Origin: Fistulifera solaris
Taxonomy: Eukaryota
Reading direction: 5' to 3'
Length of the DNA: 64,000 nucleotides
NCBI GenBank assembly: GCA_030295235.1
Contig: AP026127.1
Location: forward strand, 1,116,001-1,180,000
Below the pieces are notes generated by a model that was not told the DNA's origin, did not search any database, and saw only the letters and a program-made list of their open reading frames with translations. The position numbers were made by a program, and so were the translations under genes. Below, piece after piece: positions 18,691 to 22,007 of this stretch (its first letter is position 1; the number at the start of each line of letters is the position of its first letter).

Positions 18691-19455
18691 TTTGTTTTCC
18701 TTTCCTTGTTAGGTGTGAAGATTCTTCAATAGAAAGCTTGTGATGATGTGATGGAAGACGACAAAAGGTTTTGTTGTGGTTGTCGACCTGTCGACCTGTC
18801 GACCTGCTCCGTATTATTCTTCCTGTTTCTCCGTTTTTGTACACGTGGTCACCGGTCATAAAGTTCCACGTTCAATTTTCTGACAAGACTACTCTTTAGA
18901 TATAGTCCTAAAAATGACCTTCAAGAAGTCATCGCCAGTGCTGATAGTTAATACTACGACGGCCTCAGAATACGGTACTGCTTTTCGGTGTTTTTGTCAC
19001 TTTGTCATTATTTCTCACTAGCCGCCTTCGGCGTCTAGCCCCTGCAGGGCTTTTTTCGTTCTCGCCCTTCCCGCAAGCGGGGGCTCGATCCCCGGGGATA
19101 GCGTCACACCCGTGATTCGGACACCCGGGACCAGCGTTACGTTACGTGACACACACACGGACACAGCGCGCTATTATAATAGAGGCGGGCTAGCCTGCGG
19201 TAGCTTTTTTCGTTCTCGCCCTTCCCGCAAGCGGGGGGCTCGATCCCCGGGGATAGCGTCACACGTATTCGGACACCCGGGACCAGCGTTACGTGACACA
19301 CACACACACACACACACACACACACACACACACACACACACACACACACACACACACACACACACACACACACACACACACACACACACACACACACACA
19401 CACACACACACACACACACACACACACACACACACACACACACACACACACACAC

Positions 19456-19561
19456 GGGATTTATCTATTGACTCATGACCATCCTCTAGCTCGTTTCTCA
19501 CTCATGCGCATCGGTACCCAGTCTTTAAGTAAAATTAATCGTTACATAGTCACACCCGTTT
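19456..19561 (+). mobile_element. 5'-truncated 3'-end copy of the CRE-like retrotransposon
   Basis: gggatttatc...cacacccgttt matches the element 3' end at ~21665-21770; (CA)n on both sides. Confidence 0.8.
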
Positions 19562-19671
19562 CACACACACACACACACACACACACACACACACACACAC
19601 ACACACACACACACACACACACACACACACACACACACACACACACACACACACACACACACACACACACA

Positions 19672-19798
19672 CAACAACATGGAATTCCTACACGGGATTT
19701 ATCAATTGACTCATGACCATCCTAGCTTGTTTCTCACTCATGCGCATCGGTACCCAGTCTTTAAGTAAAATTAATCGTTACATAGTCACACCCGTTTT
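19672..19798 (+). mobile_element. Second 5'-truncated 3'-end copy of the CRE-like retrotransposon
   Basis: caacaacatggaattcctacacggga...cccgtttt is near-identical to ~21643-21770 with a few differences; (CA)n on both sides. Confidence 0.8.
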
Positions 19799-20207
19799 CA
19801 CACACACACACACACACCCGTTTTCACACACACACACACACACACACACACACACACACACACACACACACACACACACACACACACACACACACACACA
19901 CACACACGGGACCAGCGTTACGTTACGTGACACACACACACACACACACACACACACACACACACACACACACACACACACACACACACACACACACACA
20001 CACACACACACACACACACACACACACACACACACACACACACACACACACACACACACACACACACACACACACACACACACACACACACACACACACA
20101 CACACACACACACACACACACACACACACACACACACACACACACACACACACACACACACACACACACACACACACACACACACACACACACACACACA
20201 CACACAC

Positions 20208-21770
20208 GCATACTTACACTCAACAACTATCACCATCATCCATTATATGTTATGGAAACTAAAGCTCACGATGACACAACAACATGGAATTCCTCGTGTT
20301 GCTGTTAAGTACCCTCAGACGGCATATGCAGGTTTTAGCAAATCACTCCAAATGGAGTGGCAATACTTGCAGCGAGTTGTACCGGAAAGTACACAGTATT
20401 TCAGCTCCACTAGAAAAAAGCAATTCGAGAGGACTTCTTACCAGCTCTTTTGGGTGAGAAAGGTCCAGTCTCGGAAGAGCTTCGTCTGATTACGACACTG
20501 GCGACTAAAGCGGCGGGAATCGCAATTTATGACCCTTGTCGACGGGCGTCACCCAACTATGAAGCATCGGTCCAAATTACACAGCCCCTCACATTGAGCC
20601 TTGAAAACAATACTGTATTAAATATACCGGATTACCAATCAACTGCTGCAGGGGAAAGGGCAGCAGCAAAAGTGTCCCGCTTTCACGCTGATCTTAAGAT
20701 TTTTGAAGAGATTTGCGAAAATCTGAAAGATAATGAGGATGAGAAGCGTCGTCTGAAAAGAACAAAGGAAACTGGAATATGGCTCTCAGTGTTTCCGACA
20801 CTTAATGGTACCGACCTCTCGGGATGAATTCAGAGATAATATTCGGATCCGACTTGGGCTTGCACCGAAAGGAACCGAGATAGAATGTGATGGATGTGGT
20901 AAACCTTGGTCGCTTGCCCATTCACAAATTTGTTCCAAAGGAGGCCTGGTTACAATGCGGCATGACGATCTGAAAGAGGAATTTATGTCTCTTTGCAAGC
21001 AAGCTGCCGTCCCAGTAAAGTCTACGGTGAACCAATCATTAACTCAAACCGTAACAATGCTGAAACAAACGCGCGTGAAACAGAGGACATGACTGAACTC
21101 CGAGGAGATGTTGCCGTGCATGGATTCTGGAACATCAACAAAACCACAATTTTTGACGTCCGGTGTGTGACCTAGATGCCACGTCGTATATTAAGAAAGA
21201 CCCACAAAAGGCATTTGCTCAGATGATAAAAACAAAAACGACAAAATATGATAACGCTTGCAAGCTTCGACGAATGGACTTCACGCCCTTGATCTTTTCG
21301 GGTTGATGGACTGTTGAGTAAACCAGCTGTTGAAGCGTCCCGCAGGCTTGCTCGTATACTGTCGGGTAAAATGGGGACGATCTTATTCGGATACATGCGG
21401 CTACGTCCGTTCTCGTTTGAGCATTTCGCTTGCTCGATCTGCGAGTATGCTCATACGAGCTCCCCCGACAAAGAGGAACTGTTCGTGCTCCTCCGACTTG
21501 GGAAGATGGACGGGCTTGGTCCTGTACTAGGCTTCACACAACAACATGATGTCGACAAACTACTCCAAAAGGAGCATACTTACAATCAACAACTATCACC
21601 ATCATTCATTATATGTTATGGAAACAAAAGCTAACAATGACACAACAACATGGAAATCCTACACGGGATTTATCTATTGACTCATGACCATCCTCTAGCT
21701 CGTTTCTCACTCATGCGCATCGGTACCCAGTCTTTAAGTAAAATTAATCGTTACATAGTCACACCCGTTT
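20208..21770 (+). mobile_element. 5'-truncated CRE-clade non-LTR retrotransposon (post-RT region, CCHC finger, restriction-like endonuclease)
   Basis: Fragments YPQTAYAGFSKSLQMEWQYLQRV, AAGIAIYDP, GIWLSVFP, EFRDNIRIRLG, CDGCGKPWSLAHSQICSKGG-RHD, RGDVAVHGFW...IFDVR and YVRSRLSISLARS; a 3' UTR ending directly in (CA)n. Confidence 0.8.
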
Positions 21771-21853
21771 CACACACACACACACACACACACACACACA
21801 CACACACACACACACACACACACACACACACACACACACACACACACACACAC
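21771..21853. repeat. (CA)n microsatellite
   Basis: Pure CA run immediately after the retroelement 3' end. Confidence 0.99.
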
Positions 21854-22007
21854 GGACACAGCGCGCTATTATAAATAGATAGTGAGAAAATTGGTGCGAC
21901 GAAAGCACGTTATGGCTTCGGTTGAAGTTTTGTCCTGCCAAATTGTTTTGTCGCCGCTTTTCTCGCGTTGAACATTTATAATCATTATAACGCGATTCGG
22001 CAGCCTG

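What the first reader, a model, noticed from the sequence alone, without database searches (positions are those of the whole stretch)
19018..21879. Mini-Helitron carrying the (CA)n landing pad: a possible nested two-element partnership
Seen: a ~165-bp unit (19018-19183) with Helitron-type ends on the minus strand (5'-TC; 3' hairpin CGCC-GAA-GGCG then CTAG; A|T insertion) and only ~5 CA repeats inside. The next head-to-tail unit is split exactly at that CA, with its halves ~2.5 kb apart around all the retroelement copies; a third fragment lies at 19908-19930. Established: tandem copies and internal microsatellites are known for rolling-circle elements such as Lep1 and DINE-1. Inference: the Helitron spreads CA seeds, the retrotransposon colonises them, and the whole composite could be moved as Helitron cargo.
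Basis: partly seen in the sequence, partly recalled or inferred. Interest (0 to 1): 0.72.

Follow-up and report, generated by a model that had tools for sequence, protein, structure and literature searches.

The report
Diatom mini-Helitron breeds long CA repeats
A tiny rolling-circle jumping gene, copied to about 70 places in this alga's genome, holds most of the genome's long CA repeats and often stutters its own front end; a second jumping gene lands in those repeats now and then, but no sign was found that the two travel together.

Summary
The mini-Helitron is real: about 71 loci, conserved TC…CTAG ends, clean A|T insertion without target duplication, and the same ends as internally deleted RepHel elements matching Helraiser. 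No intact RepHel was found in the assembly.

"It spreads CA seeds" holds strongly. 12 of 15 loci with (CA)≥15, and all 11 with ≥40 units, lie inside this family.

The partnership is weaker. 75 of 78 exact retroelement 3' ends lie outside the window and none is followed by a CA tract; they only prefer CAC flanks. Footprints occur in 3–4 of the 12 long arrays, near what passive landing predicts. No composite occurs twice. The 19908 fragment looks like a local duplication, and unit 2 lacks its hairpin and CTAG.

Verdict: a repeat-breeding Helitron with an opportunistic passenger. The scan's notes held no earlier report of it.

The parts
19018..19183 (-). Mini-Helitron unit 1, complete (166 bp): 5' TC, (TG)5 seed, two 3' stems, CTAG
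19018..19051 (-). 3' terminus: upstream stem plus terminal stem that runs into the CTAG; the last 23 bases are identical to the end of RepHel-coding metagenome contig L249
19184..19295 (-). Unit 2, 3' part, lacking hairpin arm and CTAG; the same cut point occurs in the C25 copy
19296..19455 (+). (CA)80 tract
19452..19561 (+). Retroelement 3' piece a (110 bp), 100% identical to the 3' end of piece e; probably a local duplicate
19562..19673 (+). (CA)56 tract
19668..19798 (+). Retroelement 3' piece b (about 130 bp), a second variant 96% identical to e
19799..19907 (+). (CA)9, a roughly 12-base retroelement 3' stub c ending at 19824, then (CA)41.5
19908..19929 (-). Duplicated Helitron block that borders the CA tract; inferred local tandem duplication between two quasi-repeats flanking the tract
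   Evidence: mechanism inferred
19930..20207 (+). (CA)139 tract
20208..20294 (+). Retroelement internal 3'-UTR piece d (b-type); its joint to e is spanned by an independent contig
20295..21770 (+). 5'-truncated non-LTR retroelement piece e: C-terminal half with Zn-finger and restriction-like endonuclease motifs (read by eye; CRE-like by recalled motifs) and 3' UTR; longest copy found in the assembly
21771..21853 (+). (CA)41.5 tract
21854..21879 (-). Unit 2, 5' terminus (TC at 21879-21878, preceded by A)

Best explanation
The locus is a tandem pair of non-autonomous canonical Helitrons, deletion derivatives of a RepHel family, inserted at A|T. SHOWN: the parent family carries a short (TG)n about 25 bases from its 5' end, so every copy brings a CA seed; in about one locus in six the seed has run away to 29-237 units, and over half of the 5' ends carry stacked stubs of the terminus. 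INFERRED (about even odds): the first ~40 bases are re-copied or re-joined during Helitron integration and second-strand repair, by slippage on single-stranded DNA and possibly by RepHel re-cutting at the A|T steps inside its own 5' end, which seeds and inflates the repeats. SHOWN: an unrelated endonuclease-bearing non-LTR retroelement inserts genome-wide with a loose preference for CAC-starting flanks. INFERRED: long CA arrays are dense clusters of such sites, so it lands there opportunistically; here two or three insertions were then reshuffled by local duplication and microhomology deletion. The benefit runs one way and there is no sign that the composite moved.
For: Ends and target. RepHel link. 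Long tracts: of loci with (CA)≥7, 12 of 47 Helitron versus 3 of 64 other loci reach 15 units, and 11 of 47 versus 0 of 64 reach 40 (p=4e-5), so seed number alone does not explain it. Lengths are bimodal: 48 of 59 at 3-13 units, 11 at 29-237, none between. Repeats that the retroelement RNA cannot template expand the same way: (TCTA)33 and (TCTA)137 at 5' ends, 2 of the genome's 3 such arrays, and 8-10-base Helitron units at C25 and C30. 76 of 85 stub units are 4, 8 or 11 bases, the three A|T steps of the terminus. Empty paralogous sites show the stubs arrive with the insert. Long tracts are commoner at tandem loci, 4 of 5 against 8 of 66 (post hoc). Retroelement.
Against: Tract lengths rest on one assembly that has about 1% indel errors in this region; no read spanning a long tract was examined. 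Stub patterns recur between copies, so many may be inherited from stuttered donors rather than made anew, and the parser allowed only seven unit lengths. Retroelement footprints occur only in long arrays (3 of 57 bodies scanned, all long, plus the window), and observed ends exceed the passive estimate somewhat (0.34 expected; P(≥2)=0.045, from a by-eye count and ignoring stronger preference for longer CA runs). No intact RepHel was found, so nothing shows present activity.
Confidence: 0.7

Rival explanations
1. The retroelement makes the long tracts. Its RNA ends in CACACCCGUUU; after a nick in (TG)n the primer pairs with CACAC and the reverse transcriptase adds TG repeatedly, like telomerase, usually leaving no other trace.
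For: Footprints only in long arrays. At C21 a 46-base 3' piece stops at the RNA's CACAC and merges into (CA)237. Stubs of about 12 bases sit inside the tracts in the window and at C19. Very short insertions of 14-24 bases are common. The Helitron shares an 11-base word with the RNA's 3' end (sequence, post hoc). Bimodal lengths.
Against: 8-9 of 12 long arrays have no footprint. None of 75 outside 3' ends is followed by a CA tract. 64 non-Helitron seeds never reach 40 units. TCTA and 8-10-base units expand equally without an RNA template.
Confidence: 0.12
2. A true two-element partnership: a CA-specific retroelement colonises Helitron seeds and the Helitron carries the composite.
For: Co-occurrence at 3-4 loci. 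The longest retroelement piece found in the assembly is inside a Helitron. The outer ends of the window block are intact. Bat Helitrons have spread retroposed inserts (PMC4224331, passages).
Against: Not CA-specific. No composite recurs. Host units belong to different haplotypes.
Confidence: 0.08
3. Ordinary replication slippage after insertion, or assembly inflation of repeats, with no Helitron-specific step.
For: Helitron seeds are many; long microsatellites mutate faster (PMC3812793, passages); the assembly is indel-prone; a third long TCTA array has no adjacent body of this family.
Against: 0 of 64 non-Helitron seeds reach 40 units against 11 of 47 Helitron loci. The first stub needs a join with about one base of homology, which ordinary slippage explains poorly (inference).
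Confidence: 0.1

Closest known systems
Canonical Helitrons (HLE1), e.g. Helraiser/Helibat1 (PMC4778049 passages; PMC11417382 passages; PDB 7lcc)
   Same: 5' TC, 3' CTAG, 3' palindrome, A|T insertion without duplication, short derivatives sharing termini with RepHel elements, tandem copies; remnants align to Helraiser residues 8-250 and 1343-1495.
   Different: The last stem runs into the terminal CTAG instead of lying about 11 bases upstream (a second stem lies further in). 38 of 64 5' ends are stuttered, whereas 10 sequenced Helraiser insertions had direct A|TC joints. Runaway (TG)n next to the 5' end.
Microsatellite-bearing rolling-circle elements: Hel-2 with (CTGT)n (PMC4344730 passages) and DINE-1/HINE (PMC4067079 passages); Lep1 seen only in listings and references
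   Same: Short non-autonomous element with an internal microsatellite of variable length.
   Different: Those have subterminal inverted repeats, and DINE-1/HINE insert at TT; this one has HLE1 ends. Here the family holds most long CA arrays of the genome.
Microsatellite-associated non-LTR elements: Togen, (TG)n-specific (PMC4640811 passage); Waldo, in or near CA repeats (PMC3812793 passage)
   Same: A non-LTR element found in CA/TG repeats.
   Different: This retroelement is not repeat-specific: 75 of 78 exact 3' ends have no CA tract, only a CAC bias.
Retroposed inserts amplified by bat Helitrons (PMC4224331 passages)
   Same: Retrotransposition into a Helitron.
   Different: There the composite was copied (118 copies in four cases); here no composite occurs twice.
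SaTar arrays of guayule and rice (PMC5907723 abstract)
   Same: Arrays of elements gathered at microsatellites.
   Different: Those are Mu-like, non-nested and actively targeted; here pieces are nested in a Helitron.

Membership tests
Canonical Helitron (HLE1), non-autonomous | 5' TC terminus conserved between copies | tested here: met
   61 exact 5' termini, control 0; alignments
Canonical Helitron (HLE1), non-autonomous | 3' CTRR terminus | tested here: met
   28 of 29 parsed ends CTAG, 1 CTAC; 1 of 30 loci not parsed; 41 exact 3' 20-mers
Canonical Helitron (HLE1), non-autonomous | GC-rich hairpin near the 3' end | tested here: met
   Two stems in the last 38 bases, z=-2.8, 3 of 200 shuffles as good; position differs from the textbook 10-15 bases; the whole unit does not fold better than shuffles
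Canonical Helitron (HLE1), non-autonomous | Insertion between A and T without target-site duplication | tested here: met
   T after 29 of 29 3' ends; A before 50 of 53 5' ends; duplications of 3 bases or more 9 observed against 7.3 shuffled; 6 clean empty sites of 8 hits
Canonical Helitron (HLE1), non-autonomous | Termini shared with RepHel-coding elements | tested here: met
   L158-L160 share 38-43 5' bases at 100% with the family; L157 matches the long subfamily; Helraiser hits E 3e-21 and 8e-29; L249 has the same last 23 bases
Canonical Helitron (HLE1), non-autonomous | Intact autonomous partner with Rep (HUH/Y2) and full helicase in the same genome | tested here: inconclusive
   None found; one search's control was silent and the assembly may be incomplete
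Canonical Helitron (HLE1), non-autonomous | Rolling-circle transposition with circular intermediates | not testable with these tools
   needs circle sequencing or a transposition assay
HLE2 / Helentron / DINE-1 | Insertion at T|T | tested here: not met
   A|T instead
HLE2 / Helentron / DINE-1 | Subterminal inverted repeats of 11-15 bases | tested here: inconclusive
   None joining the two ends of a unit at minimum length 15; shorter ones were not sought
Replitron | Rep without fused helicase | tested here: not met
   Parent elements carry a PIF1-type helicase C-terminus; definition from PMC10288648 passages
CRE-clade non-LTR retrotransposon | Reverse transcriptase followed by Zn-finger and restriction-like endonuclease | tested here: inconclusive
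   RT is missing from the window piece; a related family (46% identity, L136) has RVT_1 below cut-off (E 3e-6) and R2 structure hits; endonuclease motifs read by eye against recalled consensus
CRE-clade non-LTR retrotransposon | Placement in the CRE clade by RT phylogeny | not tested
(CA)n-specific retroelement (Togen type) | Insertions confined to the microsatellite | tested here: not met
   75 of 78 exact 3' ends outside the window, none with a CA tract in the 12 letters listed; longest run 3 units in 40 examined

The most novel reading that the evidence does not exclude
Mobile-element enzymes, not host slippage, write this genome's long microsatellites: RepHel re-cuts and re-joins its own 5' end at internal A|T steps to stack terminal stubs, and the retroelement's reverse transcriptase uses the CACAC near its RNA 3' end as a telomerase-like template to lengthen the Helitron's TG seed, building its own landing sites.
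Probability: 0.13. Interest if true: 0.8.

Novelty: new variant of a known kind. Interest (0 to 1): 0.45.

Why it matters
How a Helitron's 5' end is joined to the target and how the second strand is completed are still poorly known. A family whose copies record stacked 5' stubs of defined lengths and runaway repeats in the first 40 bases gives a direct test of that step. It also ties most long CA and TCTA arrays of one compact genome to a single transposon family, which bears on the origin of microsatellites and on marker design in such algae. The two-element partnership itself reduces to opportunistic nesting, which is known.

Tried and rejected
TIR element or MITE: the 10-11-base inverted repeat flanking the window block belongs to this target site only; other copies lack it.
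TSD: none above shuffled flanks. In that call at least two rows (L020, L195) had the 3' end mis-paired and were left in the counts, 3 of 56 loci did not parse, and T after the 3' end was forced by the pattern, so one search is the unforced test.
19908 fragment as the TSD of a retro-insertion with newly made CA in front of it: set aside because the two 83-bp tracts and the quasi-repeats fit a local duplication better; not excluded.
A separate family behind the C25 motif: 5 other hits against 3 control hits, so chance level; the C25 footprint stays ambiguous.
Intact RepHel: Pfam searches, protein searches and five unlinked 5' ends found none.
One search used a wrongly spaced pattern and was redone. 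One search listed overlapping matches and was replaced.
The exact mini 5' end had 0 hits in metagenome contigs. 32 of 80 RepHel-related metagenome loci were scanned for 5' ends; none gave a usable 5' end, so generality of the stutter is untested.
No RNA holder is on record for the retroelement stretch. The Atlas look-up gave no result, which leaves the retroelement clade open.
Literature: searches showed no description of stacked 5' stubs in Helitrons or of telomerase-like microsatellite extension by such a retroelement. The library lacks most subscription papers and Repbase, I read passages or abstracts only, and no supplements were opened, so this is weak evidence of absence.

Full report
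OBSERVATION. The window is G000:C7:1116001-1180000 in a 51.7-Mb eukaryotic assembly. Earlier scan notes call it a diatom (unchecked), and the closest named RepHel homologue is from a diatom (P0030); I did not test the taxonomy. Three corrections apply: A|T describes the outer ends of the whole 19018-21879 block; unit 2 lacks its hairpin arm and CTAG; and the retroelement pieces are partly local duplicates.

THE UNIT IS A HELITRON. A DNA search scored 40 of 85 candidates and gave 50 matches at 85-100% identity. Exact patterns found 41 3' ends, 60 subterminal blocks and 61 5' ends, each with 0 control hits; their union is 71 loci. Of 30 loci, 29 parsed at the 3' end: 28 end in CTAG, one in CTAC, and all 29 are followed by T. 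A precedes 50 of 53 parsed 5' ends, duplications are no more common than in shuffled flanks (9 against 7.3), and six of eight empty-site hits show a clean A|T joint. The target reads roughly TAATAATAA, with A at +9 in 50 of 53.

PARENT FAMILY. One mini copy abuts a longer element with Helitron coding remnants. A search with that helicase end gave five loci. Four of them (0.53-1.9 kb) begin with the 5' terminus of the mini or of its longer subfamily, including the (TG)n seed, and end in a closely similar 3' terminus, one of them after an interruption. The L157 remnants align to Helraiser residues 8-250 (E 3e-21) and 1343-1495 (E 8e-29); the Rep domain and helicase core are deleted. No intact RepHel was found. 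Full-length relatives exist in public data, and metagenome contig L249 ends, after an open helicase C-terminus, in the same 23 bases as the mini. The element therefore meets the HLE1 criteria given in PMC11417382 and PMC4778049 (passages).

IT HOLDS THE LONG CA ARRAYS. The genome has 24 tracts of (CA)≥15 at 15 loci; 12 loci are inside this family (the cut part covered the C25 locus, shown again). Among 126 tracts of ≥7 units, 47 loci are Helitron and 64 are not (assignment by coordinates, 20 doubtful ones read). Twelve of 47 against 3 of 64 reach 15 units (p=0.002), and 11 of 47 against 0 of 64 reach 40 (p=4e-5). Among 59 scored 5' ends, 48 have 3-13 units and 11 have 29-237, with none between (the window's unit 2 is additional). 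Long arrays occur in all four haplotype classes, so they did not spread from one long master. Four of five tandem loci have a long tract against 8 of 66 others (p=0.002; 0.02 if three internal chimeras count as tandem; post hoc).

5' STUTTER. 38 of 64 5' termini are preceded by stacked prefixes of the terminus; 76 of 85 units are 4, 8 or 11 bases long, which are the three A|T steps in it (seven lengths allowed, two very long arrays counted once). Empty sites show that the stubs come with the insert. Two copies carry (TCTA)33 and (TCTA)137, two of only three such arrays in the genome. Eight- to ten-base units from the same 5' region are also amplified at C25 and C30. So several different repeats inflate within the first 40 bases of the element. 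Ten sequenced Helraiser insertions had direct A|TC joints, and my searches found no description of such stubs, within a limited library.

THE RETROELEMENT. Piece e carries the C-terminal half of a non-LTR protein. A related family in the genome has a weak RT hit and R2 structure hits. The CRE label rests on recalled motifs, not on a tree. The part 20300-20800 is single-copy and 27 other copies are at most 390 bp. Contigs of runs X1 and X2 agree on the same small indels against the window, so most frameshifts are probably assembly errors; X1 spans the d|e joint and X2 has a 4,137-base contig that runs on 5' of e. There are 78 exact 3' ends, three in the window. None of the other 75 shows a CA tract in the 12 letters listed; in 40 examined by script the longest run was 3 units, but CAC began within 0-3 bases in 18 of 40 against 6.2% background. 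Half of these 40 insertions align over 32 bases or fewer (ungapped). Footprints inside Helitrons: the window, 12 bases at C19, 46 bases at C21 and two one-mismatch motifs at C25; 3 of 57 scanned bodies, all with long arrays. Weighting sites by a CACAC flank (16 of 75, by eye), passive landing predicts 0.34 pattern-detectable ends in the 1,932 CA units; the window has three, of which two are probably independent. That is a mild excess, not proof of targeting.

HISTORY OF THE LOCUS (inferred). A tandem pair inserted at A|T. The seed of unit 2 expanded. Two or three retroelement insertions followed. A block from the sequence just before the tract to the last (CA)41.5 was duplicated between two quasi-repeats, and a microhomology deletion cut the left copy down to piece a. 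No second locus shares this or any other composite.

MECHANISM AND RIVALS. Best reading (0.7): a repeat-breeding Helitron with an opportunistic passenger; the link of expansion to integration or second-strand repair is inferred at about even odds. Rivals: telomerase-like extension by the retroelement (0.12), ordinary slippage or assembly inflation (0.1), true partnership with cargo transport (0.08).

COMPARISON AND NOVELTY. Internal microsatellites in rolling-circle elements (PMC4344730, PMC4067079; passages), retro-insertions into Helitrons (PMC4224331; passages), tandem Helitron arrays (PMC12001565; passages), CA-associated LINEs (PMC3812793, PMC4640811; passages) and microsatellites made by RT slippage at 3' ends (PMC2887409; passages) are all known. 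PMC10288648, PMC9659126 and PMC13286980 were read as passages and PMC5907723 as abstract; no supplements were opened. What departs from these is the stacked 5' stubs of defined length and the concentration of a genome's longest CA and TCTA arrays in one Helitron's 5' end. I rate it a new variant of a known kind, interest 0.45.

Noticed in passing
window 19010-19020 and 21880-21891: The target site of the block is an imperfect palindrome, so the flanks look like 10-11-base inverted repeats; other copies lack it.
   Followed up: yes
window 22017-22990: An enoyl-CoA hydratase-family gene (Pfam ECH_1; MenB-like by recall) appears to start about 140 bases after the block, which thus sits in its upstream region.
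   Followed up: no
window 23558-25308: A 234-bp tandem repeat, 7.4 copies; Helitron copies L014, L104 and L142 sit in look-alike repeats elsewhere (by eye).
   Followed up: partly
L192, L194, L197 (around position 300): Another repeated sequence ends directly at (AC)7-8 tracts at three loci; possibly a CA-tailed or CA-targeting element.
   Followed up: partly
L238:859-1055 (G000:C37): A (TCTA) array of about 49 units between A and T with no adjacent body of this family; possibly an orphan stutter.
   Followed up: partly
L009, L010, L012, L023: A 470-bp chimera of two partial units with about 230 bases of the parent's 5' region is dispersed to four contigs, showing that composites of this family do move.
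   Followed up: yes
L117, L213, L007, L143: A short palindromic MITE-like sequence of about 70-80 bases lies inside or beside several Helitron copies.
   Followed up: no
L127-L137: At least two further related non-LTR families (44-48% protein identity) with longer ORFs and different 3' ends.
   Followed up: partly
L141 (G000:C13 end): A RepHel derivative lies head-to-tail with a mini copy; its 5' end is missing and telomeric (TTAGGG)n follows a few hundred bases beyond.
   Followed up: partly
window 20215-21489: Two independent runs agree on about nine small indels against the window, which suggests roughly 1% indel error in this assembly.
   Followed up: partly
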